The notes beneath the pieces are model-generated. The model worked only from the letters and a program-made list of their open reading frames with translations, was not told the origin of the DNA and did no database searches. Both the position numbers and the translations under genes were made by a program. Positions 9,196 to 22,453 of a stretch of DNA of 64,000 nucleotides are shown piece by piece. Numbering within the stretch: position 1 is the first letter of the stretch; the number at the start of each line of letters is the position of its first letter. Location: the NCBI GenBank assembly GCA_029258725.1, contig JAPDKE010000034.1:15107-79106 (forward strand), read 5' to 3'. This DNA is from a bacterium (GTDB lineage Bacteria; Hydrothermota; UBA3072; JAPDKE01).

Positions 9196-9976
9196 TCCTA
9201 TTGGAGTATTTGACTCAGGAATAGGTGGATTAACCGTTGTAAGGGAGATAATGCGGGAACTGCCGGATGAGAGCATTATTTACTTTGGTGATACCGCACG
9301 GGTTCCGTATGGAACAAAGTCAAAGGAAACGATAGAGAAATTTGCGGTGGAGGATGTTGAGTTTTTACTGAAATTCAATGTAAAAATCATCGTGAGTGCA
9401 TGTTTCACGGTTTCTTCCAATGCAATGGATGTTCTGAGGGGGAAGTTCAACATCCCCATTTTCGACATGATAGAGCCAGGTGTGAGGGCTGTGAAGAGGA
9501 CGGGAAAGAGAAGGATAGGAATTATAGGCACATACGCAACGATTGAGAGCAGGGCTTATGAAAAAAGGATAAGGGAGGAAGTGCCGGATGCGGAGATATT
9601 CACCCGGCCTGCCCCTTTATTCGTTCCACTCGCAGAGGAGGGGAAAACACGGGGGAAGATTGCAGAGCTTGTTGTAGAGGAGTATTTAAAAGAACTGAAA
9701 GGGAGGGTGGAAGTTCTCGTTCTTGGATGCACCCATTATCCACTGCTTAAGGAAACGATAAAGGATTTTATGGAGGAGGTTATTCTCGTGGAACCGGGGA
9801 AGGAGGTTGCGGGAATGCTCAAAGAATACCTGGGAAAAGAAGGATTGTTATCCTCAGGACCTCCCCGGTATTCCTTTTATCTTTCTGATATTCCGCGGAA
9901 ATTCGGAGAGATAGGGGAGAGATTCCTTGGAAGAAAACTTGAGGGAATAAGGGTTGTGAGGGAGTGGATTACCTGA
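9179..9976 (+). CDS. murI: Glutamate racemase
   Basis: IGVFDSGIGGLTVVREI N-terminal motif, the two catalytic-Cys regions (SACFTVSSNA, LGCTHYP), 265 aa. Confidence 0.9.
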   Translation: MRKSTDPIGVFDSGIGGLTVVREIMRELPDESIIYFGDTARVPYGTKSKETIEKFAVEDVEFLLKFNVKIIVSACFTVSSNAMDVLRGKFNIPIFDMIEPGVRAVKRTGKRRIGIIGTYATIESRAYEKRIREEVPDAEIFTRPAPLFVPLAEEGKTRGKIAELVVEEYLKELKGRVEVLVLGCTHYPLLKETIKDFMEEVILVEPGKEVAGMLKEYLGKEGLLSSGPPRYSFYLSDIPRKFGEIGERFLGRKLEGIRVVREWIT

Positions 9977-11765
9977 AAATTTTCCTTTTCACAGGTCTCT
10001 TTTTTGGAATTATTCCTATATCCATCTCCTTTTTCCTATCCCCCGGTCTCAGGTAGATGTAAAGCAAAAGGTCGGGAGGATTCAGGGTATAGCCGGGTGG
10101 AAGATTCCTCACCCCCAGGATGTAGAATCCAGGGAGCAAATTTCCCAGAATGTAATCCCCTTTTGAATCGGTTATCGTGAAGTAATGGGTATCTTTTATG
10201 TAAATCACGGTATTTGGAACCCCCTCCTCTCCATAGTCCCATCTTCCATTTTCATTTCTGTCATAAAAGACCTTTCCTGATATGTATGCGAGGGTGGTTA
10301 TTGGGAAATCAATCCTCACTTTATCAAACCACCCCACCCTGAACTTCTTTTCCTCAAACCGTGCACCATAAGATGCGGGTAAATTCCCCAGGTCTATGTA
10401 AACTCTGTGGAATCCAGGTGCAAGTCTTTCAAATCTGTATCTCCCTGAATAGTCTGTCTTGACAGTATCCTTATCATCCAGAACCATTCTCACTCCCCTT
10501 ACCACAGGTTCTCCCTTATCGTATTTTTTATTGTTATTCTCATCATAGAATACAATCCCCTCCACTCTTCCAAATCCCCTCTTTTCTATCTCTCCCCCCT
10601 GCCCAAGGTAGAAAGAAAGAGAGGTTGATGATGGACAGCGTGATATGTCCATGTTGATGGAAAAACTTTTCCAGTAAAAGGAAAGTCCAAAGTCTGCGGA
10701 AGAGAATTCACGATTAAAAAAGTTGAGGTTAAAGGAGGTGGAGAGAGAGGGAACGGGCTTCACCCTGAGATAGAAAGCAAATCTTGAGGAATTTATATCG
10801 TTTCTTTTTACTTCACTCCTTATCCCGGTGGAGTAGTAGGGAGAGGGGGAAAGGAATAGACCAATGGATACCCTTTTTTCAGGATTTGCACCCCATACTG
10901 CATCTCCATGAAGTTCTCCTTTCACAAATTTATATTTTTTGAATAAAGACCCTCCCATTCCAAAGAATCCTCCATCCTGGAATCCCTCCCTGAATCTCAA
11001 GGAAAAGAAATTATACGAAAATGTATGGAAGAATTTTATATATCCGGTTTTCTTTATTCCAGCGGATATTGCGTGGAACATATTTATAAAAGGAAAACGG
11101 TAACCAAGACCTCCGGTGAGGGAAAGATTGAAAGAGGGGGTTCGTGAAAGATAGGACGAAATATAATGAGAGGAATAAACCCTCAGGGTTCCAAAAAGGT
11201 AAAATGGGTCGGTTTTTGAGTACTTCATAAATAATCCAGAAAATGGACGCATGGCAGACGTATCCCTCCATATACCCCCCGTAAAAACACCTCTGAAATG
11301 TCCTGTCTTTATTCTCAGGTTGAGTCTGGATATAAACAGACCATTATTTTCCTGCCTTATCACTCCCTCTGTTTTTATGAACTTCATTACGGAGTCCACA
11401 CCAAAGAAGAGGAAAAACTTATTGTCCTGGAAAGTAGGTGAGAAAGAAGACAGGAGGTCCTGGAGTTTACCTCCGCCTCCATAACATTTTTTATATTTTA
11501 CACCAATTCCCAGCATTCTTGGATAACCTCCAGATGGAAGTTCAATCTCCGGGCGGAATATACCTGCCTCAAATCCCCTGTACCTGAAATAAACGGTTCT
11601 CATTCCCTTTTCCAAGGGAGTCCTTCCACCCTCTATGAGGAAGTTCCACCCGGGTTGATAAAGGGAGAGGAGTATGGAACCCCGGTATTCTTTTTCTTCC
11701 ATAAACGTTGTTAATTGATGGGATGTCTCCCACCGGTACGAGATAAAAGAAAGAATAAGAATCAT
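9969..11765 (-). CDS. Putative outer-membrane beta-barrel protein with two C-terminal CarboxypepD_reg/CNA-B-like beta-sandwich domains (usher-like?)
   Basis: 598-aa ORF. About 380 aa is rich in alternating aromatic/Gly beta-strand pattern. It is followed by two about 90-aa repeats (GRYRFERLAPGFHRVYID ; GDYILGNLLPGFYILGV) of the transthyretin/SdrD-B-like fold. ATGA coupling to the upstream PapD-like gene. Confidence 0.45.
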   Translation of the reverse strand: MILILSFISYRWETSHQLTTFMEEKEYRGSILLSLYQPGWNFLIEGGRTPLEKGMRTVYFRYRGFEAGIFRPEIELPSGGYPRMLGIGVKYKKCYGGGGKLQDLLSSFSPTFQDNKFFLFFGVDSVMKFIKTEGVIRQENNGLFISRLNLRIKTGHFRGVFTGGIWRDTSAMRPFSGLFMKYSKTDPFYLFGTLRVYSSHYISSYLSRTPSFNLSLTGGLGYRFPFINMFHAISAGIKKTGYIKFFHTFSYNFFSLRFREGFQDGGFFGMGGSLFKKYKFVKGELHGDAVWGANPEKRVSIGLFLSPSPYYSTGIRSEVKRNDINSSRFAFYLRVKPVPSLSTSFNLNFFNREFSSADFGLSFYWKSFSINMDISRCPSSTSLSFYLGQGGEIEKRGFGRVEGIVFYDENNNKKYDKGEPVVRGVRMVLDDKDTVKTDYSGRYRFERLAPGFHRVYIDLGNLPASYGARFEEKKFRVGWFDKVRIDFPITTLAYISGKVFYDRNENGRWDYGEEGVPNTVIYIKDTHYFTITDSKGDYILGNLLPGFYILGVRNLPPGYTLNPPDLLLYIYLRPGDRKKEMDIGIIPKKRPVKRKIFR

Positions 11766-12472
11766 CTCACCAGTATCTCTCTTTCCCCCTCAAGGATTTC
11801 AAGACCACCGTAGTCTATCCGCGCAATAACCCTGAATCTTCCCTTCTTTTTGAAGGGAAAGGCAAACACCCGCCTGGAATGCCTCAGGACCGTTTCCCCC
11901 TCCACCTTTTTCTCATAAACCTTCTCCGCACCATCCCATACGGTTATAGTTACAGATGGTTTCAGCCTGCAGTTTCCATCATTTGAAAATTCAACAAAAA
12001 TTGTATCTCCTTCATATGTTATATTCTTTATATCCCCGTTTTTCACAACCGTATTCGCAGCCTTGATGTAAAGTGCACAAACGACCTCACCTTCCAGAAC
12101 CACGGTTGGTTTCCACACCTTTGGAAGCCTCACGGACCGGAAGACAAGAACACCTGAATATTCTCCACGGGCATTCTGAGGCAAATTTACCGTAAATCTC
12201 ACGGTTTTTTTCTCCCCGGGGAGAATTGTGAATGAAAGGGGGTTTACCTCAACATATTCGTGACAGGAAAATGGATACACTCCCGGGTCAAGCCATTTAA
12301 CCTTGCCCCTTGCATCTATTACAAAATCCTCTTTTTTAACCTCGATGAACAGTGTTTCCCTGCTTACATTGGTAATTCTTATTGATTTTGTGACTGCTCT
12401 TCCTGGAAATACAACTAAATCAAAAGAAGGAGGGGAAAGGAGAAATCCAAACCCTGAGAGAACAAATAGCAA
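11762..12472 (-). CDS. Secreted two-domain Ig-like protein, PapD/MSP-like periplasmic chaperone fold (putative)
   Basis: 236-aa ORF with signal peptide. Domain 1 is VVFPGRAVTKSIRITNVSRETLFIEV...FTILPGEKKTVRFTV, the classic PapD-like/CARDB-like strand pattern. A second beta-sandwich follows. Its size matches pilus chaperones. Confidence 0.4.
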   Translation of the reverse strand: MLFVLSGFGFLLSPPSFDLVVFPGRAVTKSIRITNVSRETLFIEVKKEDFVIDARGKVKWLDPGVYPFSCHEYVEVNPLSFTILPGEKKTVRFTVNLPQNARGEYSGVLVFRSVRLPKVWKPTVVLEGEVVCALYIKAANTVVKNGDIKNITYEGDTIFVEFSNDGNCRLKPSVTITVWDGAEKVYEKKVEGETVLRHSRRVFAFPFKKKGRFRVIARIDYGGLEILEGEREILVR

Positions 12473-12497
12473 GGATTCCTCCCTTCCCCTTTACCTT

Positions 12498-13040
12498 TTA
12501 CAGTGCGTAGACCCTGTATCTGACCCAGGTGGTGTATGTTCCTGCCGGGTCGTCAGCCTGTGCCTCAAATCTGTAATCCTCGTCGTGGGCTTCCCATCCC
12601 GTGGTTTTTGAACCACTTGCATGGTTTGTCCAGCCATTGCTGAAGTCCTCGTATGTTCCATCCCCCGCAGGACTCCACTCAAGCTGGGTTATTGGAATGT
12701 CTGCGTCAAAGTCATCACCGCATGCATCAAGATACCAGGTCTTTGTTGGAGAGTTGGAGAACACCTCTATGTCCACGGTTGGGCTGGTTGCAGGGTCTGT
12801 GGGGTCATAGTACGCGGGGAAGGAAGCAGGAGGATAACCAGCAGCATCAAGGTCAAATACCACAATATCGCCTGAGGCATCGGTTTCAAGATAGAGTCCT
12901 ATTCTTTCGGGGATGATAACCTGAACCTGAACGGAGTCAACCAGTGTGTCTGGAGGAGCACCTATCTGGCGACCAAGTCCAAAAAGGTTGAGGGGTAAAA
13001 CTACCAGAGCAAAAAGGAAAATGCACTTCCTCATACCCAC
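12498..13040 (-). CDS. Secreted acidic protein (candidate structural subunit), atypical composition
   Basis: 180-aa ORF with a clear signal peptide (MGMRKCIFLFALVVLPLNLFG). The mature part is Asp/Thr/Pro/Gly-rich with only 3 Lys, which is strikingly unlike the flanking K/E-rich proteins. The DNA is visibly GC-richer. Confidence 0.5.
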   Translation of the reverse strand: MGMRKCIFLFALVVLPLNLFGLGRQIGAPPDTLVDSVQVQVIIPERIGLYLETDASGDIVVFDLDAAGYPPASFPAYYDPTDPATSPTVDIEVFSNSPTKTWYLDACGDDFDADIPITQLEWSPAGDGTYEDFSNGWTNHASGSKTTGWEAHDEDYRFEAQADDPAGTYTTWVRYRVYAL

Positions 13041-13047
13041 CTCCTTT

Positions 13048-13476
13048 TTAATCGTTTGCCCTCAAGACAAAGATAAAGGGAACGGTAAACCTTCCCGCCC
13101 CTATCTCCCAGCCTACCCTTATCTTGAGGTCAAGGGTTATGAGTTTTTCCTCCGTGGGACCTCCCTTTGCTATGTCAAAGTTTTCATCCTTTCTCAGGGG
13201 GCGATACTCTCCATCAGGAAGTTTCCATTCCATTATATCCAGGGGAATGATTTTCCCGGTTTCATCCCTGAACTCTTCAGGGACCTTAAAGGAAAGAACC
13301 CAGTCGGTGTTTGCCTTTACCCTCAACCTTATCGCCCCCCTCTTTTCCACATCCTTTCCAGGGTCTATCTCACCGAAGTCCACAAACTTCGTAAGAACCT
13401 CCAGCGAGATGGTTGGCTCCACCTCAAACTCAACAACCGCCCTGTCCTCAACGGCAAAAAGCAGTAGCCACAGCAT
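13048..13476 (-). CDS. Small secreted beta-rich protein (candidate minor subunit), first gene of the operon
   Basis: 142-aa ORF. AGGA lies 5 nt before the ATG. It has a hydrophobic N-terminus and all-beta-like sequence (WVLSFKVPEEF...MEWKLPDGEY). Confidence 0.45.
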   Translation of the reverse strand: MLWLLLFAVEDRAVVEFEVEPTISLEVLTKFVDFGEIDPGKDVEKRGAIRLRVKANTDWVLSFKVPEEFRDETGKIIPLDIMEWKLPDGEYRPLRKDENFDIAKGGPTEEKLITLDLKIRVGWEIGAGRFTVPFIFVLRAND

Positions 13477-13537: not shown

Positions 13538-13566
13538 ATTGACAAAATAAAAGAGGGGGGTATAAT
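13538..13566 (+). promoter_or_regulatory. Sigma70-type promoter (TTGACA - 16/17 nt - TATAAT) for the trmH-like gene
   Basis: ttgacaaaataaaagaggggggTATAAT sits immediately upstream of the start at 13575 and is read directly from the sequence. Confidence 0.55.
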
Positions 13567-13574
13567 GCAGATGG

Positions 13575-14150
13575 ATGACAGAAAGAAGAAAAAGAAGGAT
13601 AGAGGAGGTTTTATCAAAAAGACAGCATGACCTTGTTCTTGTCCTGGAGGACCTCTACAAAGAGCATAATGTGAGTGCAATTATAAGGTCTGCGGATGCA
13701 TTTGGGGTCCTGAGGATTTATGTTGTCAAGGAGGGAGAATTCAGGTATGCCCCTTCAGTTTCACGGGGTTCTGAGGAGTGGGTTGATGTTATCGTAACAT
13801 CGTCTATAGAAGACGTTCTTGTGGAATTAAAGGGCAAGGGATTTCAGATAGTTGCAACATACCTTGGAGAGGGAACAGTGAGACCTGAGGAGGTTGATTT
13901 TACCCTTCCCACTGCAATAGTTCTGGGAAACGAACTTGAGGGGGTGAGTGAAAAGGTGATTGAAATCTCGGATGTGAGGGTAAAGATACCCACCATAGGT
14001 ATGGTTACGAGCCTCAATGTCTCTGTGGCATGTGGAATATTACTTTACGAGGCGATGAAACAGAGGGAAAGGAAGGGGTTCTTCAGGGAAAGAAGACTCC
14101 CTCCTGAACTGTACGAGTGGATGAGGAAAAGATGGATGGAGAATACCTGA
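13575..14150 (+). CDS. SpoU/TrmH-family RNA 2'-O-methyltransferase
   Basis: Motifs HNVSAIIRSADAFGV, IVLGNELEGVS and VTSLNVSVACGILLYE identify the SPOUT class. 191 aa. Confidence 0.8.
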   Translation: MTERRKRRIEEVLSKRQHDLVLVLEDLYKEHNVSAIIRSADAFGVLRIYVVKEGEFRYAPSVSRGSEEWVDVIVTSSIEDVLVELKGKGFQIVATYLGEGTVRPEEVDFTLPTAIVLGNELEGVSEKVIEISDVRVKIPTIGMVTSLNVSVACGILLYEAMKQRERKGFFRERRLPPELYEWMRKRWMENT

Positions 14151-16120
14151 GGTATCTTGAGGAGCATTTTGGTAAAAGAGAAAAGGTCCTTTTTGAATAT
14201 GCAAAACCATTTATTGAAAAATACCTTCTTATTCCCGAGGAGATAAAAAATCCACCTTACATCATTATTACTGAAAGAAAAGAGAGGGAAAGAATACTTG
14301 AAATGATCAGGGGAATGGAGGAGTATATCTCAGAGGGAAGAGAGGAGGCATGGGAGGAGAAGGGAGCCTCTTTTTTAACCTATCTCTCCGAACTTTATCC
14401 TGAATGGGAGAAAACCTATGGGAAACCCGTGCTGCTGGAGCTTGGATTGAGGAATCTTATTGCCCACAGGATATCCCCATCCTCTCTCTTACCCGAATTC
14501 TCAGAGCGTATAAATGCGGTGTTTCACTGGGCAAGAGAAAAAATGCCTCCCCATCCGCTCTTTTCCAGAGTGAGGAAATGTTTTCTTATTCCCGATGATG
14601 CCTTCAATCTTAAAAGAGAATCCATTGAATTTTTTGTTTCTCCCTATATTCCCCCTTCCCTTTTCTGGAAAATCCTGGAAGAGGTGAAGGTGGAAAGAAT
14701 GGAAAAGACAGAAGAGGAGGTGAAAAAGGAGGTCGAACCCTCTATTTCCCTTCTTTTGAAAGGTATAGAACCACTTCTCATGGATTTCCCTCATTCTGCA
14801 GGGGAGATAATAAAAAGGCTTGAAAGAGCGAAGGAAAGCCTTGTTCTGAAAGAGCAGGAGTTCAGGGAGAGGAAAAAGAAAAGGGAAATAGCAGTCTCAA
14901 TACCGGAGTTCCTGAGAAAACTCATCCACCTTCCTGAACTCGAACACGAGGTCGTTATGGATATTCTGAGAGAGAGTATGCCTGAAAAGTACACAAAAGG
15001 TAGATTGAGAAGGGAGGTGGATTTTGATGCATTTGAGCAGGATTACCGTGCCTTACTTGACAGACTTCTTCCTTCCATTGCACTCAAGGTTCTTGAAACA
15101 ATGGTGAGGGTGTGGATACCTGAAAAAATCATCCTGGATGAGGCAAGGTACTTTGGATTTAAGATGAGAAAAAAGGAAGTATTTTTTATACCACCAAAGG
15201 ACTATCATGAAATAAAGGAAGAAAAATGGGAAAGAATAGTTGCGGTCCTTGTCTATGATATAAGGGGGTCGTCATTCATGGGAGAAAAACTTGGATGTGC
15301 AAAAAAGGAGAGTGAGATAAGGAATCTATTTCAGGAAAGGATGGCGAAGGTTGGGAGGAAGTATGGAGCTTTTCTCCTGAAGGATACAGGGGATGGCGGA
15401 ATTTTCTTTTTCTCAGAAAACTCGGACTCCCTTTATCTTTCCTATCTCTCTGCAAGGGAGAAGGGGAGATACCCTGAACCTCAGGAACTCATACCAGGGG
15501 AGGATGCAGGATACAGGGCTGTTCTCTGCGCGCGCGACATGGTGGTGGAAGCGGAGAAGTTTGTAAAGGAACATCTTGAGAAGTATGCAGAGTGGTTCAC
15601 GGAGATTGAGGAGAAAAAGATTGAATTTGGAGGGATTGTTTATCAGCGTCTTCCTCCATCCTATAGAGAAATATTCAGAATAGGAGTGGGAATAGCAGGA
15701 GGATTGCCTCCAGATGATGTGTGGTTTGAGATAAATGCCTTTGGGGATGGGGACCTTACCGGAAGGCTTGTGAGGGATGCGACCCTCTTCTCAAAGGCAA
15801 AACACCCTGAAAGGTCGGTAATACTTGCAGATGAGCTTGTTGTGAGTAATTTTATACTGAGGGTTGAATCCTTTGAGTATGAAAAGGAGGAAAAAGAAGA
15901 GGGTATGGCCCCGGAAAATCCCGAGGTCCTTTTCCTTCACGAACTTTTCACCTGGTACCGGGGAGGAAAGAACTATAAGGTAAAACAGGCAAGGGTAAAA
16001 ATAGAAAGGGTAATGAAGGAAGGCATGGAGTATGAGGGAATGAGGATAGGGGAGAGGAAGGAGGGAGTGGACAGAAAGAGCGGGAAGGTGAAGAGTGTCT
16101 ATGAAATCCTGGTAACATAA
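14117..16120 (+). CDS. Large cytoplasmic protein with a class-III nucleotidyl cyclase (CHD)-like domain after a 370-aa helical N-region
   Basis: 667-aa ORF. The C-terminal half has VAVLVYDIRGSSFMGEKLG (like F.DI.GFT), LLKDTGDGGIFFF (like K.IGD..MAVF), RIGVGIAGG (like R[IV]GIH.G.V..G) and FGDGDLTGRLVRDAT (like GD.VN.A.R.E). It overlaps the trmH-like gene by 34 nt. Confidence 0.5.
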   Translation: MDEEKMDGEYLRYLEEHFGKREKVLFEYAKPFIEKYLLIPEEIKNPPYIIITERKERERILEMIRGMEEYISEGREEAWEEKGASFLTYLSELYPEWEKTYGKPVLLELGLRNLIAHRISPSSLLPEFSERINAVFHWAREKMPPHPLFSRVRKCFLIPDDAFNLKRESIEFFVSPYIPPSLFWKILEEVKVERMEKTEEEVKKEVEPSISLLLKGIEPLLMDFPHSAGEIIKRLERAKESLVLKEQEFRERKKKREIAVSIPEFLRKLIHLPELEHEVVMDILRESMPEKYTKGRLRREVDFDAFEQDYRALLDRLLPSIALKVLETMVRVWIPEKIILDEARYFGFKMRKKEVFFIPPKDYHEIKEEKWERIVAVLVYDIRGSSFMGEKLGCAKKESEIRNLFQERMAKVGRKYGAFLLKDTGDGGIFFFSENSDSLYLSYLSAREKGRYPEPQELIPGEDAGYRAVLCARDMVVEAEKFVKEHLEKYAEWFTEIEEKKIEFGGIVYQRLPPSYREIFRIGVGIAGGLPPDDVWFEINAFGDGDLTGRLVRDATLFSKAKHPERSVILADELVVSNFILRVESFEYEKEEKEEGMAPENPEVLFLHELFTWYRGGKNYKVKQARVKIERVMKEGMEYEGMRIGERKEGVDRKSGKVKSVYEILVT

Positions 16121-16125
16121 AGGAG

Positions 16126-16998
16126 GTGGATATGGGAGAGCATCCTGTGGTTGAGGAAAGTATATCTCTTTTTAAGGAGGCTGGAGAACGCGCCCCGGAA
16201 CTTGAGGGTGTTCCAACCGGGATAGAGGGGCTTGATGACCTTTTCTTCACCGCGGTTATGAAAAAGGGAAACCCCAAAAAGATATCCCTTGGAGGAATTC
16301 CAAGATACGCAATATTCAATCTCACAGGAATTGCGGATACCGGTAAAAGTCTTATGGTTGAGCAGTTTGCAATAACACGTGCGGGGGCAGGGGAAAAGGT
16401 TGTTTTTATAACGGTTGAATCACCGGCTCCCTTTGTTGCAGCAGGGATGAAGGAAAGGGCGAAGATAATGGGTGTACCGGAGGAAAACGTTGAGGAGAAT
16501 ATAATCTTCATAGATGCTGCATCCTATCATGTGGTAAGAGAGGATATTCTTTCATTACTTAATACCCTTGCACATGTGATAAAAACCTACAAAACCCAGC
16601 ACGTCGTTGTTGACTCAATAACAGGGCTTTATGAAAACAGGGAAATGATGGCAAGGCAGGTTGTGAGGCAGATATTCAACTTCCTGAAGAAGTGGCACCA
16701 GACAGGTCTGCTTGTATCCCAGAAGCGTTCAGGACACGAGGCATTCTCATCAGAGGCGGCAGGGGGTTATGCGGTTGCACACATAGTTGATGGGACTTTT
16801 GTTCTTTTCAAGGAGACGATAGATTCAAACTACAAGGAGAGAATGTACGGATTGCCCATAGGGGAGATGGTGAGGTTATTCAGGATAGATGGATGCAGAC
16901 TGTGCGGTCACGATGCAGAGACCCATTTGTTTGAAATAACAGAGGGAGGACTTGTCCGTATAGGTCCATCTCTTGCTGAATTGAAAAAGAAGAAATGA
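16126..16998 (+). CDS. KaiC/RadA-like single-domain RecA-superfamily ATPase
   Basis: PTGIEGLDDLF...G...YAIFNLTGIADTGKSLMVEQFA matches the KaiC-domain N-terminus including Walker A. A Walker B-like motif is HVVVDSITGL. There is a C-terminal CRLCGH motif. It begins 6 nt after the cyclase-like gene. Confidence 0.75.
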   Translation: MDMGEHPVVEESISLFKEAGERAPELEGVPTGIEGLDDLFFTAVMKKGNPKKISLGGIPRYAIFNLTGIADTGKSLMVEQFAITRAGAGEKVVFITVESPAPFVAAGMKERAKIMGVPEENVEENIIFIDAASYHVVREDILSLLNTLAHVIKTYKTQHVVVDSITGLYENREMMARQVVRQIFNFLKKWHQTGLLVSQKRSGHEAFSSEAAGGYAVAHIVDGTFVLFKETIDSNYKERMYGLPIGEMVRLFRIDGCRLCGHDAETHLFEITEGGLVRIGPSLAELKKKK

Positions 16999-18062
16999 TA
17001 CTGAGAAGATATGTCCTCAGGGAATTTTTCATTGCCTCCCTTTACTCGGGATTCGCATTTGTATTCATATATCACATAACCCACCTTTTTGAACGCATAG
17101 GGAAGTACATAGACAGGAAAATACCCATTCATAAATTGCTTGTTTTTTACCTTTACTTCACCCCCCAGGTTCTTTCCCTTATACTTCCCTTGATCTTCAT
17201 GCTCGGTCTTTTTTTCTCGCTCGGGAAATTATCCAGAAACAATGAAATCCTTGCTGTGAGGTCTCTTGGAATATCTCCGGCTGTTCTTGTAAAACCCATT
17301 GTTTTCATCGGGGTTATCACGATTTTTTTATTCGCCTGCTTTAACCAGTTTTTGGTTCCTCCCTCAAACTTCAAAATGAGAAAGTGGGAGCAGGAGAATC
17401 TTTATGGAGTAAAGAGGGGAAAGAAAAGATACTTTCATCATCTTGAGGTCCTTGACGAGAAGGGAAGGATGATAACCGTGGGATTTTATGATGCAAAAAA
17501 GAGGGTGATGAGGGATGTTGAGGTAACCCGATATAAAGAGGGAAGGATAACCGAAAATCTTTATGCAAAAAGAGGTGTGTATAAGGGTAAGCTGTGGAAA
17601 CTTACGGAGGTCTGGAGAAGAAAATTTCATAAAGAGCAGGAAAAACTTGAGCATCTTGACTCACTTTACCTTGACCTTCCACCCCCTCTTTATTTTGAAA
17701 GGGAAAAAAGGAAGCCGGATGAGATGGCATTTTTTGAACTCTACTCTCACATAAAAAGAGTGGAAAGCACAGGAGGGGTTGCAACCGGAGAAAAAATAGA
17801 GCTCTACATGAGGTTTTCCTATGCCTTCATCCCTCTGATTCTTATTTTCTACGGTGCTCCCCTTGCAGTGAGTGTCAAAAAGAGAGGGTTTGGTTTTGGA
17901 TTTGGATGGACCTTGTTTATTTCATTTATTTACTGGGGAACGCTCGAAACCTTCAGGGCAATGGGGGTAAAGGGAAGCCTTCCCCCCGCACTTTCCGCAT
18001 GGATTCCAAACATCATGTTTTTCCTGGTGGGACTCTTCATCAATCTCTGGAGGAGAATATGA
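16995..18062 (+). CDS. LptF/LptG-family (YjgP/YjgQ) LPS export permease
   Basis: N-terminal MILRRYVLREFF, a six-TM layout with a large periplasmic loop, 355 aa. ATGA-coupled to the KaiC-like gene. Confidence 0.8.
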   Translation: MILRRYVLREFFIASLYSGFAFVFIYHITHLFERIGKYIDRKIPIHKLLVFYLYFTPQVLSLILPLIFMLGLFFSLGKLSRNNEILAVRSLGISPAVLVKPIVFIGVITIFLFACFNQFLVPPSNFKMRKWEQENLYGVKRGKKRYFHHLEVLDEKGRMITVGFYDAKKRVMRDVEVTRYKEGRITENLYAKRGVYKGKLWKLTEVWRRKFHKEQEKLEHLDSLYLDLPPPLYFEREKRKPDEMAFFELYSHIKRVESTGGVATGEKIELYMRFSYAFIPLILIFYGAPLAVSVKKRGFGFGFGWTLFISFIYWGTLETFRAMGVKGSLPPALSAWIPNIMFFLVGLFINLWRRI

Positions 18063-18681
18063 CCCTTACCTCCTTAACATCCCACAGAGGTGAAAGGGTT
18101 TCCTCAATCTCCTCCTTTATATGGGATGCAAAGTCCCTCTGTGCTGGAATGTTTAAGTAAACAGTGACAACCCCATCCTTTATCTCATAATCCTTAACCG
18201 TCCCAACCCTTATAACATCCATCCCTGCCGCAGGGTCAATAACATGCTCAAGCCTTTCTCTTATAACCTCCTTATCCGTTGGCTTTTTCTCCTTCAATAT
18301 TCCGTGTGTATGCTCGTAGTTCTCTATTGCCCTTTTTATGGCATCCACCGCAAGAACCGCACAGTGAACCTTCACAGGAGGCAATCCTCCAAGGGCATCC
18401 ACAACATCCTTCCATGAAATCTTCTTTGCCTCCTCAAGGGTCTTTCCCTTTACCATCTCGGTTGCCATGGATGCCGTTGCTATGTTGGATGCACATCCAA
18501 AGGATTCAAACTTTATATCCTCAATCACCAAAGTTTGAGGGTTTACCTTTAAATAAACCCTGACCATATCCCCACATGCAGGGCTTCCCTCAGATGCCTT
18601 TGCATCAGGATTTTCTATCTTTCCAGCATTCCTTGGATTTAGAAAGTGCTCAATTACCTTCTGAGAATAGGGTGTCTTCAT
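18040..18681 (-). CDS. nifU: NifU/IscU-type Fe-S scaffold fused to a C-terminal DUF59-like domain
   Basis: The IscU core has the three Cys motifs (PACGDMVRV, GCASNIA, VKVHCAVLA). The C-terminal 85 aa (VIDPAAGMDVIRVGTV...) parallels the standalone DUF59 gene at 19832..20131 but lacks its Cys. Confidence 0.85.
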   Translation of the reverse strand: MKTPYSQKVIEHFLNPRNAGKIENPDAKASEGSPACGDMVRVYLKVNPQTLVIEDIKFESFGCASNIATASMATEMVKGKTLEEAKKISWKDVVDALGGLPPVKVHCAVLAVDAIKRAIENYEHTHGILKEKKPTDKEVIRERLEHVIDPAAGMDVIRVGTVKDYEIKDGVVTVYLNIPAQRDFASHIKEEIEETLSPLWDVKEVRVIFSSRD

Positions 18682-19898
18682 TCCTTCCTCCCGAGAGGGC
18701 TTATTTTTCTCAACCTTTCGACAACCTCTTTAAGCCTTGAAACTGCCTCATCTATCTCTTTTTCGGTTGTGAACCTTGATATTCCAAATCTTAAAGAGCC
18801 ATGGGCATCTTCATATGGAACACCCATTGCCCTTAAAACATAACTTGCCTCAAGTTTCCTGGAAAAGCATGCGGAACCCGTTGTAACAGAAACACCCAAA
18901 AGGTCAAGCTGAATCACAACTGCCTCTCCTTCCACGTATCTTATTGTGACATTGAGATTTGCAGGATGTCTCTCCTCGGGTCCATTGAGTTTGATATCCT
19001 CTATCTCTTCTTTCAATCTCTTCCATAAATAGTCTCTTAGATATTTAACCCTCTCTCTTTCCTCATCATCCATGAGTTCAAGAGCCTTTGCAAATCCTAT
19101 GATTCCGGGAATGTTGGGTATTCCTCCTCTCAACCCATACTCGTGAAATGTTCCATCTATTAGTGGCTTTATCTTTATCCCATCCCTTATCCATAATGCT
19201 CCCGTTCCCTTTGGTCCATGAACCTTGTGGGCTGTGAGGGTAACCATGTCTGCTTTCCAGTTTTCAACTGAGAAGGGAATCCATCCTGTTGAATATGCTG
19301 CATCAACGTGGAAGGCAATCCCTTTCTCTTTCACGATTTTCCCTATTTCCTCAATCGGCTGTATCACACCAACTTCAGGATTTGAGTGCTGTAGGGTAAC
19401 AAGTATTGTGTCTTCTCTTATGTTTTTCTTCACATCATCCGGATCAACGTATCCTTCAGGGGAAACAGGAAGGTATGTTACCTCAAATCCCTCTTTTTCA
19501 AGGGTATAAAGTGTATGCCTCACGGACTGATGCTCTATGGAGGAACTTATTATGTGCATCCCCTTATCCCAGTTTTCTCGTGCAAATCCCTTTATTGCCA
19601 GGTTGTTTGCCTCTGTTCCTCCTGATGTAAAAATAAGTTTCCCTTCCTTTCCATCTATATATCCCTTTATAAACTCCCTTCTCTTCTCTATCTCCTCCTC
19701 AATGGCTTTCCCGTGAGAATGGGAAAATTGAGAAGAGGGGACCGCATACTTTTCAGTGAAATAGGGAAGCATCTCTTCCAGAACCTGAGGGTCCGTGCGG
19801 GTTGTGAGTGTTCCGTCAAGATATATTCTACTCACTGTATTCCAAACCTCTTTTTTACCTCCGGGGATACCATGGAGGGATTCCATGGGGGGTCCCAC
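18678..19898 (-). CDS. nifS: Cysteine desulfurase NifS/IscS
   Basis: PLP-lysine region TLTAHKVHGPKGTGALWIRDG, catalytic SACFS near the C-terminus, 406 aa in the track. The real start is probably GTG at about 19827 (protein then starts SRIYLDG), which removes the overlap with the DUF59 gene. Confidence 0.9.
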   Translation of the reverse strand: MGPPMESLHGIPGGKKEVWNTVSRIYLDGTLTTRTDPQVLEEMLPYFTEKYAVPSSQFSHSHGKAIEEEIEKRREFIKGYIDGKEGKLIFTSGGTEANNLAIKGFARENWDKGMHIISSSIEHQSVRHTLYTLEKEGFEVTYLPVSPEGYVDPDDVKKNIREDTILVTLQHSNPEVGVIQPIEEIGKIVKEKGIAFHVDAAYSTGWIPFSVENWKADMVTLTAHKVHGPKGTGALWIRDGIKIKPLIDGTFHEYGLRGGIPNIPGIIGFAKALELMDDEERERVKYLRDYLWKRLKEEIEDIKLNGPEERHPANLNVTIRYVEGEAVVIQLDLLGVSVTTGSACFSRKLEASYVLRAMGVPYEDAHGSLRFGISRFTTEKEIDEAVSRLKEVVERLRKISPLGRKE

Positions 19899-20131
19899 AC
19901 GAGTTCAACCTCAACCTTTTTTACCCCCTCTATCTTTTCCACCCTCTCCTTAACCTGCTGGGTTAAGAAATGGGCGAGGGGACATCCTTTCACCGTGAGT
20001 GTCATCCTTATCTTCACCTCCTCCGGAGAGGGACACTCAATCCCGTATATAAGCCCCAGGTCCACCACATTGATACCGAGTTCAGGGTCAACAACCTCCT
20101 TCAGTGCCTCTCTTATTTTTTCCTCCATCAT
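19832..20131 (-). CDS. DUF59 (MIP18/SufT-like) Fe-S assembly protein
   Basis: 99-aa ORF with VVDPELGINVVDLGLIY ... TVKGCPL. It sits directly between the tRNA-Leu and nifS. Confidence 0.8.
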   Translation of the reverse strand: MMEEKIREALKEVVDPELGINVVDLGLIYGIECPSPEEVKIRMTLTVKGCPLAHFLTQQVKERVEKIEGVKKVEVELVWDPPWNPSMVSPEVKKRFGIQ

Positions 20132-20141
20132 TCCTCCAGGA

Positions 20142-20227
20142 ATGCCGGAGGCCGGACTCGAACCGGCACGGGGATTATTCCCCAGCGGATTTTAAGTCCG
20201 CTGCGTCTACCAGTTCCGCCACTCCGG
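20142..20227 (-). tRNA. tRNA-Leu (anticodon UAA), 86 nt, no encoded CCA
   Basis: Hand-folded from the reverse complement. The acceptor stem is GCCGGAG/CTCCGGC with discriminator A. The anticodon arm is GCGGA-CTTAAAA-TCCGC. A long variable arm is GGGGAATAATCCCC. The T-arm is GCCGG-TTCGAGT-CCGGC. Confidence 0.85.
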
Positions 20228-20266
20228 CACCGTTTAAATTTTACGAAGTTTTTATCCATTTTCAAG

Positions 20267-22453
20267 TTATTTTAAGAAAAGCCTTACGAGGGTGAACTTC
20301 ACAACAAATCCTGCGAAAACGATGGATACCATGGACATGAGTTTTATGAGAATATTCAAGGATGGACCTGCTGTATCCTTGAGAGGGTCACCAACCGTAT
20401 CACCGGTAACCCCTGCCTTGTGCGCATCGCTTCCCTTCCCCCCATAGTTTCCCTTCTCTATATATTTTTTTGCATTATCCCATGCACCACCGGCGTTTGC
20501 CATGAATATTGCAACTGCAAAACCGGAGGTCAGAACCCCTGCAAGCAGTCCCATAACTCCATTTGGTCCTGCAAGATATCCAACGATGATGGGAGTGAGC
20601 AATGCGGTCATTGCCGGAAGAATCATCTCGCGCTGTGCAGCCCTTGTGCATATGTAAACTGCCCTTCCATACTCCGGTTTTGCCTTCCCCTCAAGCAATC
20701 CCTTTATCTCCTTAAACTGCCTTCTCACCTCCATCACAATCTCACCCGCAGCCCTGCTCACAGCCCTTATTGCAAGTGCACTGAAGGCAAAGGGAAGCAT
20801 CGCACCTATGAATATTCCTGCGAGGGTGAAGGGGTCGGTCAGGACAGGTTTTATAAATTCCCTGAGATGGGAAAGCCCCATCCTCTCTGCCCAGAGCAGG
20901 ATGTCGTGATAGTACGCTGCGATGAGTGCGAGTGCTGTGAGTGCGGCAGAGCCAATTGCAAATCCCTTTCCTGTTGCTGCGGTTGTGTTTCCGAGAGCGT
21001 CAAGTGCATCGGTTCTTTCCCTTACACAGTCAGGCAGACCTGCCATCTGTGCGTTTCCACCTGCATTGTCAGCAACAGGCCCATAGGCATCGGTTGCAAG
21101 GGTTATTCCCAGGGTTGAAAGCATTCCAACGGCTGCAAGTCCAACACCATAGAGTCCCATGCTGAAGTTATGAATTCCTCCTGAAACCACGAAACTTGCA
21201 ATGGTCGCCAGAACAACCGTGATAACCGGAATTGTGGTTGAAAGCATTCCCACACTCAACCCCTCAAGGATGTTGGTTGCATATCCGGTTGTGGATGCCT
21301 GTGCTATCCTTCGGGTTGGAGGATATGTATCAGAGGTGAAGTATTCTGTGGAGAGACCTATTATGAGCCCTGCTCCAAGTCCTATCACCATTGCCCAGAA
21401 TATGTTGAAGTGCTCGGGTAACATGTATTTCATAACGAAAAAGTTTGCAATCACGATGATGATACTGCTTCCCCATATTCCCCTTCTCAGTGCCATGAGC
21501 AGTGCATGCTGGGATACCTCTTCCCTTGTCTTTACAAGAAATATCCCTATTATGGATGCAATTACACCAATTCCTGCAAGAACCATGGGAACGAGAACTC
21601 CTTTTATTCCAAGCCTTGCGGATGCGGCAAGGGACATGGTTGCAACGATGGAATCAACATAGGATTCATACAGGTCGGCACCCATTCCCGCCACATCTCC
21701 CACATTATCTCCAACATTATCCGCAATGGTTGCAGGGTTTCTGGGGTCATCCTCAGGTATGTTTGCCTCTATTTTTCCAACAAGGTCTGCACCAACATCC
21801 GCAGCCTTTGTGAATATTCCTCCTCCAACCCTTGCAAACAGTGCCTGCGCAGATGCACCCATTCCGAAGGAGAGCATGGTGAAGGTTATTGCCTCAAGCA
21901 GTTTATCTCCCGTCATTCCCTGCTTTATCCGGTAAAACCAGTCAAGAATCCTGAACCATATGCTCAAATCCAGGAGTCCAAGTCCAACAACCGTAAGCCC
22001 CATCACCGCCCCTGCTGAGAACGCAATCTTCAATGCTTTATTGAGACTTTCCCTTGCAGCATTTGCAGTCCTTGCACTTGTTCTCGTTGCTATGGTCATT
22101 CCTATGAATCCTGAAAGACCGGAGAAGAAACCTCCGGTGAGGAATGCAAATGGAACAAATATAGGCTGCAATCCCGATACGGCAAGGATGAGGAGAAGAA
22201 TAAAGGCAACCACAAAGAAGATGGCAACGACCGAATACTGCCTTTTGAGATACGCCCTTGCACCTTCCCTCACTGCCTCTGCTATCTCTATCATTTTTTC
22301 AGTGCCCTCACTTTCCCTGAGGGCTCTTTTTGCAAGATAAAAAGCAAATAAAAGGGCAAGCATGGAACCTGCCGGAGCGAACCAGTAAAATCCGCTCATT
22401 TTCACCTCCTGGGATTTTTTTGGATATTTAACAGATTTGTAAGGGAAAATCAA
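20267..22453 (-). CDS. hppA: Membrane-bound H+(or Na+)-translocating pyrophosphatase
   Basis: 728 aa, polytopic. Signature GDTVGDPLKDTAGPSLN and the DNVGDNVGD motifs. Confidence 0.95.
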   Translation of the reverse strand: MIFPYKSVKYPKKSQEVKMSGFYWFAPAGSMLALLFAFYLAKRALRESEGTEKMIEIAEAVREGARAYLKRQYSVVAIFFVVAFILLLILAVSGLQPIFVPFAFLTGGFFSGLSGFIGMTIATRTSARTANAARESLNKALKIAFSAGAVMGLTVVGLGLLDLSIWFRILDWFYRIKQGMTGDKLLEAITFTMLSFGMGASAQALFARVGGGIFTKAADVGADLVGKIEANIPEDDPRNPATIADNVGDNVGDVAGMGADLYESYVDSIVATMSLAASARLGIKGVLVPMVLAGIGVIASIIGIFLVKTREEVSQHALLMALRRGIWGSSIIIVIANFFVMKYMLPEHFNIFWAMVIGLGAGLIIGLSTEYFTSDTYPPTRRIAQASTTGYATNILEGLSVGMLSTTIPVITVVLATIASFVVSGGIHNFSMGLYGVGLAAVGMLSTLGITLATDAYGPVADNAGGNAQMAGLPDCVRERTDALDALGNTTAATGKGFAIGSAALTALALIAAYYHDILLWAERMGLSHLREFIKPVLTDPFTLAGIFIGAMLPFAFSALAIRAVSRAAGEIVMEVRRQFKEIKGLLEGKAKPEYGRAVYICTRAAQREMILPAMTALLTPIIVGYLAGPNGVMGLLAGVLTSGFAVAIFMANAGGAWDNAKKYIEKGNYGGKGSDAHKAGVTGDTVGDPLKDTAGPSLNILIKLMSMVSIVFAGFVVKFTLVRLFLK

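What the first reader, a model, noticed from the sequence alone, without database searches (positions are those of the whole stretch)
14117..16998. CHD nucleotide-cyclase-like protein coupled to a KaiC/RecA-like ATPase
The 667-aa protein carries recognisable class-III cyclase homology-domain motifs (VLVYDIRGSS, KDTGDGGIFFF, RIGVGIAGG, FGDGDLTGRLVRDAT) behind a 370-aa uncharacterised helical N-region. Its stop is 6 nt from a 290-aa KaiC-domain ATPase with an intact Walker A (GIADTGKS). CHD cyclases make cAMP/cGMP, and also cCMP/cUMP in Pycsar anti-phage systems. Pairing a cyclase with a KaiC-like ATPase instead of a TM or TIR effector is not a described arrangement. The pair is wedged between a tRNA-methylase gene and lptFG, which suggests insertion. 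It could be a signalling or defence module of unknown type.
Basis: partly seen in the sequence, partly recalled or inferred. Interest (0 to 1): 0.65.

Follow-up and report, generated by a model that had tools for sequence, protein, structure and literature searches.

The report
Divergent cyclase-like gene beside unrelated KaiC ATPase
The first gene really does encode a very divergent relative of adenylate/guanylate cyclases and the second a KaiC-type ATPase, but the two sit together only in this one organism, so they are most likely just neighbours in a tightly packed operon, not a new signalling or defence module.

Summary
Both ORFs exist as described. The likelier starts are ATG 14132 and ATG 16132.

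**KaiC.** The 288/290-aa protein is a standard member of the thermophile KaiC family TIGR03878 (416 bits, cutoff 232).

**The pairing is not conserved.**
- None of 76 GTDB loci carrying a cyclase-like homologue has a KaiC gene within 8 kb.
- None of the five further homologue loci from the protein database has one either.
- None of seven independent KaiC-side loci has the cyclase-like gene.
- The closest relatives show trmH-CHD-valS. Paralogues show a tandem pair followed by GAF-GGDEF.

**Insertion is not supported.** The trmH-CHD junction is ancestral, GC content is unremarkable, and one promoter-like site precedes four tightly packed genes.

**Verdict.** A lineage-specific divergent cyclase-like protein beside an unrelated KaiC. 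Modest interest.

The parts
13539..13566 (+). Sigma-70-type promoter-like site (TTGACA-16-TATAAT, 12/12), 9 nt upstream of trmH. It is the only strong + strand promoter match before the four co-directional genes.
   Evidence: This is a consensus match only, and the number of sites in the region is not above shuffled expectation.
13575..14150 (+). SpoU-family RNA 2'-O-methyltransferase (TrmH-like), 191 aa. Its 3' end overlaps the start of the cyclase-like gene.
   Evidence: PF00588 E 1.2e-35. NF008295 TrmH at 185 bits, below the 227-bit cutoff. The same gene lies directly upstream of the homologue in L007, L013 and L014.
14117..16120 (+). Cyclase-like protein, 667 aa from GTG 14117. The likelier start is ATG 14132 (662 aa).
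   Evidence: An identical 662-aa product, P0001, is called on a 140-kb public contig.
14141..15106 (+). N-terminal all-helical region (residues ~9-330), including long helices 192-223 and 225-270. No family match, and poorly conserved among homologues (14-23% identity).
   Evidence: AlphaFold model secondary structure and pLDDT. No Pfam or NCBIfam hit. N-region alignment A5. No separate structural match.
15224..15871 (+). Divergent class III cyclase homology domain (residues ~370-585). Metal Asp D381 and D426, base-specifying K422 and D546, R553 at the Asn position, L557 at the Arg position. Family-specific insertions lie between beta3 and beta4.
15965..16117 (+). C-terminal small beta-rich region (residues ~617-667). 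It is present across the family (K659 in at least 90% of members). Function unknown and model confidence mixed.
16121..16126 (+). Shine-Dalgarno AGGAGG immediately after the TAA stop, 5 nt before ATG 16132.
16132..16998 (+). Single-domain KaiC/RecA-like ATPase of the thermophile AF_0795 family (288 aa; 290 aa if read from GTG 16126). Walker A GIADTGKS is encoded at 16327-16350.
16995..18062 (+). LptF/LptG-family LPS export permease, 355 aa. Its ATG overlaps the kaiC stop (ATGA).
   Evidence: PF03739 E 1.1e-76. TIGR04408 at 195 bits, below its cutoff.

Best explanation
The first gene encodes a soluble member of a small, lineage-restricted family of very divergent class III cyclase-homology-domain proteins. 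Its named members come from candidate division WOR-3, Stahlbacteria, TA06, Cloacimonadota and Edwardsbacteria. Its architecture is a variable helical N-region, then a CHD with two family-specific insertions, then a small C-terminal beta region. Shown here: the fold, the homology to CHDs, and the invariance of both metal-binding Asp and of the Lys/Asp pair that specifies adenine in canonical adenylate cyclases. Also shown: the loss of the canonical transition-state Asn/Arg pair. Inferred: like other class III enzymes it acts as a head-to-tail dimer that binds metal-NTP, most likely ATP, at the interface. It then either cyclises the nucleotide with non-canonical transition-state stabilisation (my preferred reading, roughly 55%) or serves as a nucleotide-binding regulatory pseudo-cyclase (roughly 30%). 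In relatives the family's recurrent partner is a GAF-GGDEF diguanylate cyclase, so the family belongs to nucleotide second-messenger signalling. The second gene is an ordinary member of the thermophile-specific single-domain KaiC family TIGR03878, whose neighbours elsewhere are quite different. The juxtaposition here is a species-level rearrangement downstream of an ancestral trmH-CHD(-valS) arrangement. The genome is densely packed and the genes probably share one transcript (trmH-CHD-kaiC-lptF/G). It is not a dedicated two-gene module, an inserted island or a defence system.
Against: The CHD stop and the kaiC start are only 11 nt apart with a strong SD, so the two are very probably co-transcribed and could be translationally coupled. 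The pair is stable on several contigs of this species-level cluster. KaiC-like ATPases are associated with signalling genes elsewhere; for example the Kryptobacter locus L091 has a response regulator and a sigma-54 activator downstream. A lineage-specific functional link therefore cannot be excluded by synteny alone. No relative closer than 41% identity exists in the databases, so synteny at short evolutionary distance cannot be assessed. Cyclase activity is unproven, and absence of the Arg in every member argues against efficient canonical catalysis. The full-length model is of moderate quality (pLDDT 72, pTM 0.52).
Confidence: 0.62

Rival explanations
1. One reading: the CHD protein and the KaiC-like ATPase form a functional two-component signalling module in this organism. 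For example, KaiC ATPase or autophosphorylation state would gate the cyclase, or the cyclic nucleotide would control KaiC.
For: The 11-nt gap with a strong SD and the shared orientation suggest co-transcription. The pair recurs on several contigs of the same >=90% clusters. This KaiC family sits next to signalling genes in at least one other lineage (L091).
Against: No conservation of the pairing from either side: 0/76 GTDB loci, 0 of five other homologue loci, and 0 of seven KaiC loci. The same presumed transcript also carries trmH and lptF/G, so operon membership here is not function-specific. Tight spacing is the norm on this contig. Both families have different recurrent partners elsewhere.
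Confidence: 0.08
2. A Pycsar-like or other cyclic-nucleotide anti-phage defence system carried on an inserted island, with KaiC as a novel effector.
Against: The PycC hit covers only the generic beta1-beta3 part of any CHD. There is no TM or TIR effector, and KaiC has no PADLOC hit. The family occupies conserved housekeeping neighbourhoods (rpoA-rplQ-trmH-CHD-valS; yceG-pair-GGDEF-rpsP) across many species, which is unlike patchy defence islands. No GC anomaly, tRNA or integrase lies at the locus. K422/D546 resemble the purine (adenine) specifying pair.
Confidence: 0.02
3. The CHD is a catalytically dead pseudo-cyclase that only binds metal-NTP and acts as a nucleotide sensor or scaffold. The precedent is the class III cyclase-like ATP-binding protein of P. 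aeruginosa (PDB 6yii). This reading is compatible with the adjacency to KaiC being coincidental.
Against: Absolute conservation of both metal Asp, of the Lys/Asp pair and of the GDGG hairpin over sequences only 25-50% identical points to selection for chemistry, not just binding. An active cyclase lacking the Asn is documented: Ma1120 has Ala there (PMC4215837). An invariant Arg (R383, 59/59) next to the first metal Asp could substitute.
Confidence: 0.28

Closest known systems
Bacterial class III adenylate/guanylate cyclases (CHD; e.g. P. aeruginosa CyaB 3r5g, Spirulina CyaC 1wc1, Synechocystis Cya2 2w01, M. avium Ma1120 4wp3)
   Different: Not detected by Pfam PF00211. Inserted segments totalling roughly 70 residues lie between beta3 and beta4. 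The transition-state Arg is replaced by a hydrophobic residue, or Thr once, in every member, and the Asn is not conserved. The helical N-region and C-terminal beta region are unique. Distribution is restricted to WOR-3-related lineages.
Pycsar pyrimidine cyclases (PycC; e.g. Burkholderia cUMP synthase 7r65)
   Different: No adjacent TM or TIR effector, core-like conserved synteny and no island features. The base-specifying residues are the purine-type Lys/Asp.
Class III cyclase-like ATP-binding pseudo-enzymes (P. aeruginosa 6yii)
   Different: Much weaker structural similarity than to active cyclases. The WOR-3 family keeps both metal Asp invariant.
KaiC domain protein, AF_0795 family (NCBIfam TIGR03878, 'thermo_KaiC_2')
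   Same: The 288/290-aa protein matches full length at 416 bits (cutoff 232), with an intact Walker A and 60-74% identity to hundreds of homologues.
   Different: Nothing distinguishes it from other members except its local neighbours. The usual neighbours (SDH_protease/NfeD-like, a conserved 124-204 aa protein) are absent from this 64-kb window.
Cyanobacterial clock protein KaiC
   Same: RecA-like KaiC domain. The best PDB sequence matches are KaiC CI domains, E about 1e-13 to 1e-9.
   Different: It has a single domain, not the CI-CII tandem of about 520 aa, and no KaiA/KaiB context was seen. It is not a clock component by any tested criterion.

Membership tests
Class III nucleotidyl cyclase (CHD) | [quoted passage not shown] | tested here: met
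Class III nucleotidyl cyclase (CHD) | Match to Pfam PF00211 Guanylate_cyc above the gathering score | tested here: not met
   No PF00211 hit for the window protein or any of 24 family members, even at E <= 1.
Class III nucleotidyl cyclase (CHD) | Statistically significant sequence homology at profile level | tested here: met
   hhalign 99.2%, E 2.1e-19, 158 columns. Profile against PDB: CyaB E 4.5e-5. The weak tail of the library search consists of PF00211 proteins.
Class III nucleotidyl cyclase (CHD) | Two metal-binding Asp (beta1 and the beta2-beta3 hairpin) | tested here: met
   D381 and D426, each 59/59.
Class III nucleotidyl cyclase (CHD) | Substrate-specifying pair (Lys/Asp for ATP) | tested here: met
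   K422 59/59 and D546 58/58, in register with the canonical positions. The spacing D...(+7)...(+4) is the same as D157/A164/R168 of Ma1120.
Class III nucleotidyl cyclase (CHD) | Transition-state-stabilising Asn/Arg pair on alpha4 | tested here: not met
   The Asn position is R553 here, and A24/R13/D10/S7/N4 across the family. The Arg position is L557 here, and L/F/I/V/T across the family, never Arg or Lys.
Class III nucleotidyl cyclase (CHD) | Head-to-tail dimer and NTP-to-cNMP activity | not testable with these tools
   No multimer prediction or biochemistry is available.
Pycsar defence system | PycC-type cyclase recognised by a defence-system model | tested here: inconclusive
   PADLOC PycC E 0.012, 13.1 bits, residues 336-436 only.
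Pycsar defence system | Adjacent effector gene (TM or TIR type) and patchy, island-like distribution | tested here: not met
   The downstream gene is KaiC here, and valS or GAF-GGDEF in relatives. Housekeeping synteny is conserved. No GC anomaly.
KaiC domain protein, AF_0795 family (TIGR03878) | Full-length match above the curated cutoff | tested here: met
   416.3 bits against 232.2, profile positions 1-258 of 259.
KaiC domain protein, AF_0795 family (TIGR03878) | Intact P-loop (Walker A GxxxxGK[ST]) | tested here: met
   GIADTGKS at residues 68-75.
Cyanobacterial-type KaiABC oscillator | Double-domain KaiC (CI+CII, about 500 aa) | tested here: not met
   A single PF06745 domain in 288-290 aa.
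Conserved CHD-KaiC two-gene module (as proposed) | Adjacency of the two families in independent relatives | tested here: not met
   0/76 GTDB loci within 8 kb. 0 of five other homologue loci. 0 of seven KaiC loci. The pairing occurs only within the same >=90% clusters.

The most novel reading that the evidence does not exclude
In this one thermophilic lineage a divergent, Arg-less class III cyclase-like protein has been newly wired to an AF_0795-type KaiC ATPase. The two are translationally coupled and physically interacting, so that KaiC nucleotide or phosphorylation state controls production of a cyclic (or other) nucleotide signal. That would be a KaiC-gated cyclase with no described precedent.
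Probability: 0.07. Interest if true: 0.6.

Novelty: new variant of a known kind. Interest (0 to 1): 0.3.

Why it matters
The proposed cyclase-KaiC module would have been a new kind of signalling or defence system, but the evidence says it is a chance neighbourhood, which removes that claim. What remains has modest value. It is a compact, sharply delimited family of cyclase-homology-domain proteins that standard domain models miss. The family keeps the metal and base-binding residues but has lost the canonical transition-state pair in every member. In most WOR-3-type genomes it occurs as a tandem paralogue pair directly upstream of a GAF-GGDEF diguanylate cyclase. If these proteins are active, they would show how class III cyclases can work without the conserved Arg. 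They might also define a cNMP-to-c-di-GMP relay in an uncultured phylum-level lineage. If inactive, they add a conserved pseudo-cyclase family.

Tried and rejected
- **Pfam, NCBIfam and PADLOC scans of the 667-aa protein.** No usable family hit. The weak Hemerythrin, DUF6247 and PycC hits were rejected as sub-threshold.
- **Full-length family profile against PDB.** It was swamped by coiled-coil hits from the N-region. Redone with the C-domain only.
- **Metagenome scan with the KaiC protein.** It returned only three loci, one of them the same organism, so it added little.
- **afdb50 fold library.** Unavailable.
- **Usual KaiC partners and other genes in the window.** I searched for an SDH_protease/NfeD-like gene, the conserved 124-204 aa protein, a GGDEF gene, valS and a second CHD paralogue. 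None was found.
- **Rfam and tRNA scans.** Nothing at the locus.
- **Paper PMC2447327.** The held text lacked the passage on catalytic residues. PMC4215837 was used instead.
- **NKFDE-type cNMP-binding motif in the neighbouring GAF domains of relatives.** Only a partial, non-diagnostic resemblance, so no claim is made.
Full report
**Observation**

The window carries the two ORFs exactly where stated: 14117-16120 (+, 667 aa from GTG) and 16126-16998 (+, 290 aa from GTG).

- Public gene calls on a near-identical 140-kb contig start the genes at ATG 14132 (662 aa) and ATG 16132 (288 aa).
- The sequence supports those starts. GAGGA precedes ATG 14132. A perfect AGGAGG at 16121-16126, directly after the TAA stop, precedes ATG 16132. 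The intergenic gap is therefore 11 nt.
- Upstream lies a SpoU/TrmH-type methyltransferase (13575-14150), whose end overlaps the cyclase-like gene.
- Downstream lies a single LptF/G-type permease (16995-18062), whose ATG overlaps the kaiC stop.

**Is the first protein a cyclase-homology-domain protein? Yes, but a very divergent one.**

Standard libraries fail. There is no Pfam or NCBIfam hit for the protein or for any of 24 homologues, and only a 13-bit partial PADLOC PycC hit. More sensitive methods agree that it is a CHD:

- A profile of the conserved C-terminal domain (residues 366-592, alignment A3) hits P. aeruginosa CyaB in the PDB at E 4.5e-5. YDIRGS aligns to DIRGFT and KDTGDGG to KFVGD. 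Several other class III cyclases follow at E 0.035-1.2.
- Searching the same profile against 1.84 billion representative proteins gives a sharply bounded family: 40 clusters at E <= 1e-30. After a large gap comes a weak tail, and six of the nine tail proteins scanned are ordinary PF00211 cyclases.
- Profile-profile comparison with an alignment of those canonical domains gives 99.2% probability, E 2.1e-19 over 158 columns.
- An AlphaFold model built on 59 homologues has mean pLDDT 72, with blocks of 85-96 over much of the CHD core. It shows the CHD strand-helix order between residues 374 and 582.

**Catalytic residues**

The register comes from the hhalign alignment. It matches the D157/A164/R168 spacing described for the active cyclase Ma1120 (PMC4215837). 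The tally over 59 sequences is:

| Canonical role | Residue here | Across the family |
|---|---|---|
| Metal Asp 1 | D381 | 59/59 |
| Metal Asp 2 | D426 | 59/59 |
| Substrate Lys | K422 | 59/59 |
| Substrate Asp | D546 | 58/58 |
| Transition-state Asn | R553 | A24, R13, D10, S7, N4 |
| Transition-state Arg | L557 | L46, F6, I3, V2, T1; never basic |

Four of the six canonical residues are therefore under absolute conservation, and the Asn/Arg pair is missing. Ma1120 shows that an Ala at the Asn position is compatible with activity, but Ma1120 keeps the Arg. An invariant Arg (R383) next to the first metal Asp is a candidate substitute; that is inference only.

The strict conservation of the metal and base-binding residues, across sequences only 25-50% identical, favours retained chemistry. 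I put an active non-canonical cyclase at about 55% and a nucleotide-binding pseudo-cyclase at about 30%. Lys/Asp points to ATP as ligand.

The N-terminal ~330 residues are predicted all-helical with two long helices (192-270). They are poorly conserved (14-23% identity) and match nothing. A ~50-residue beta-rich C-terminal region is shared by the family.

**Is the second protein a KaiC-type ATPase? Yes, and an ordinary one.**

- It matches PF06745 at E 7.9e-54 and NCBIfam TIGR03878 ('thermo_KaiC_2', AF_0795 family) full length at 416 bits, against a cutoff of 232.
- It has more than 1500 homologues. The listed best 120 are 54-74% identical, and those carrying a source name come from WOR-3, Hydrothermota, Thermotogae, Kryptobacter and a deltaproteobacterium.
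- The closest solved relatives are KaiC CI domains and the single-domain archaeal proteins PH0284 and SSO2452.
- It is single-domain and is not a clock KaiC.

**Are the two genes a module? The evidence says no.**

From the cyclase side:

- A scan of one genome per GTDB species found 76 loci encoding a homologue. tblastn finds no KaiC within 8 kb in any of them.
- 15 loci, including the best-scoring matches to the window protein, have valS immediately downstream. Two of these (L013, L014) and the closest database homologue (P0002, 41% identity, L007) also have the SpoU methylase immediately upstream. The ancestral arrangement is therefore trmH-CHD-valS.
- 53 loci have a GAF-GGDEF gene downstream, usually after a tandem pair of ~806 and ~755 aa paralogues, and 40 of the 76 loci have yceG upstream. 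Several are followed by rpsP.
- Other homologues are followed by a metallophosphatase or, in L010, by valS again.

From the KaiC side, seven independent loci show these neighbours and never the CHD gene:

- an SDH_protease/NfeD-like gene (L087, L089);
- a conserved 124-204 aa unknown protein (L089, L091);
- a response regulator plus a sigma-54 activator (L091);
- a ClpB-like cluster (L087, L096, L098).

The pair recurs only on contigs belonging to the same >=90%-identity clusters, meaning the same species-level population.

**Is it an insertion? The evidence is against it.**

- GC content across the pair (0.42-0.48) matches the flanks.
- No tRNA or mobile-element signature lies at the locus. 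The only tRNA in the window is at 20142-20229.
- The left junction (trmH-CHD) is conserved in relatives. What differs is the gene downstream of the CHD gene: valS in relatives, kaiC-lptF/G here. That indicates a local rearrangement in this lineage.
- The tight spacing is not informative. On the public contig almost every same-strand gene pair overlaps or is 25 nt or less apart.
- A single perfect -35/-10 match lies 9 nt upstream of trmH (13539-13566). No + strand terminator-like site separates the CHD gene, kaiC and lptF/G. The four unrelated genes probably share a transcript, and that weakens any functional reading of co-transcription.

**Defence reading**

A Pycsar-like system needs a cyclase with an adjacent effector and typically shows patchy, island-like distribution. 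Here there is no effector, and KaiC has no PADLOC hit. The family also sits in conserved ribosomal, tRNA-synthetase and cell-wall gene neighbourhoods across many species. I consider this essentially excluded.

**What remains uncertain**

No relative between 41% and 90% identity exists in the databases, so short-range synteny cannot be judged. A species-specific functional link between the two co-transcribed genes cannot be excluded (about 7-8%). Activity of the CHD is unproven. The full-length model is only of moderate confidence outside the CHD core.

**Comparison with known systems and novelty**

The protein works, as far as can be inferred, like a soluble class III cyclase with a regulatory N-region. 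It passes the fold, profile-homology, metal-Asp and Lys/Asp tests. It fails the Pfam threshold and the Asn/Arg test.

Some database sources already label members 'class 3 adenylate cyclase' or 'Guanylate cyc...', so the general kinship is not new. The consistent Arg-less active site, the insertions, the restricted distribution and the tandem-pair-plus-GAF-GGDEF arrangement make the family a new variant of a known kind. The cyclase-KaiC 'module' itself is not a real feature.

Divergent, previously unrecognised CHD-like families have precedents, such as DUF2652 (PMC4886424).

**Verdict**

Noticed in passing
L003-L006 and 53 of the 76 GTDB loci L011-L086 (e.g. L004:6001-11755): In most WOR-3-type genomes the family occurs as two tandem paralogues (~806 aa then ~755 aa, overlapping stop/start). 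A GAF-GGDEF protein (motif GGDEY) follows directly. Where the flanks are present the block is wedged between yceG/mltG and rpsP-KH-trmD-rplS. This suggests a heterodimeric CHD pair feeding a GAF-regulated diguanylate cyclase. Both paralogues keep all the invariant residues, so there is no C1/C2-style complementary degeneration.
   Followed up: partly
L007:1427-6803; L011-L019, L027, L058, L061, L062, L068, L074: The subgroup closest to the window protein is immediately upstream of valS in 15 species spanning WOR-3, Stahlbacteria, TA06 and Cloacimonadota. Three loci also have trmH upstream, and L007 has rpoA-rplQ before that. Why a signalling-type protein keeps such a conserved place among translation genes is unexplained.
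   Followed up: partly
L087:4134-5903; L089:5001-7334; L091:5001-6289: The AF_0795-type KaiC family has its own recurrent neighbours. One is an SDH_protease/NfeD1b_N (ClpP-fold) protein, lying on either side of kaiC in two unrelated lineages. The other is a conserved unknown protein of 124-204 aa (58-60% identical between a WOR-3 bacterium and Kryptobacter). Neither is present in this 64-kb window.
   Followed up: partly
L087, L096, L098 (e.g. L096:8891-13406): In the lineage with the closest KaiC homologues (74% identity) kaiC lies convergent to a 207-aa unknown gene, a ~1080-aa ClpB-like double-AAA protein and a 219-aa unknown gene. All three loci come from closely related genomes (ClpB 90-92% identical), so this counts as a single observation.
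   Followed up: partly
window 13539-13566 (+): A perfect sigma-70 consensus (TTGACA, 16 nt, TATAAT) lies 9 nt upstream of trmH, in the divergent intergenic region between the minus-strand cluster ending at 13476 and trmH.
   Followed up: no
window 9969-13476 (-): Four co-directional genes of 142, 180, 236 and 598 aa lie here. The largest has SdrD_B/CarboxypepD_reg-like repeats (public annotation) and the other three have no Pfam hit on record. The set may be a surface-structure or adhesin assembly cluster, and it was not examined.
   Followed up: no
protein P0220 (1573 aa) from the representative search: A 1573-aa protein with no Pfam hit matches the CHD profile in 17 separate stretches. The best stretch covers only profile positions 11-27, the beta1 'YDIRGS' region. 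This may be a repeat protein built from a CHD-beta1-like motif, or a compositional artefact.
   Followed up: no
window 18040-22453 (-): Downstream on the opposite strand lie a NifU-like scaffold, an IscS/NifS-like cysteine desulfurase and a small FeS_assembly_P protein, then tRNA-Leu(TAA) at 20142-20229 and a membrane H+-pyrophosphatase. This is ordinary housekeeping context, consistent with a chromosomal core region.
   Followed up: no
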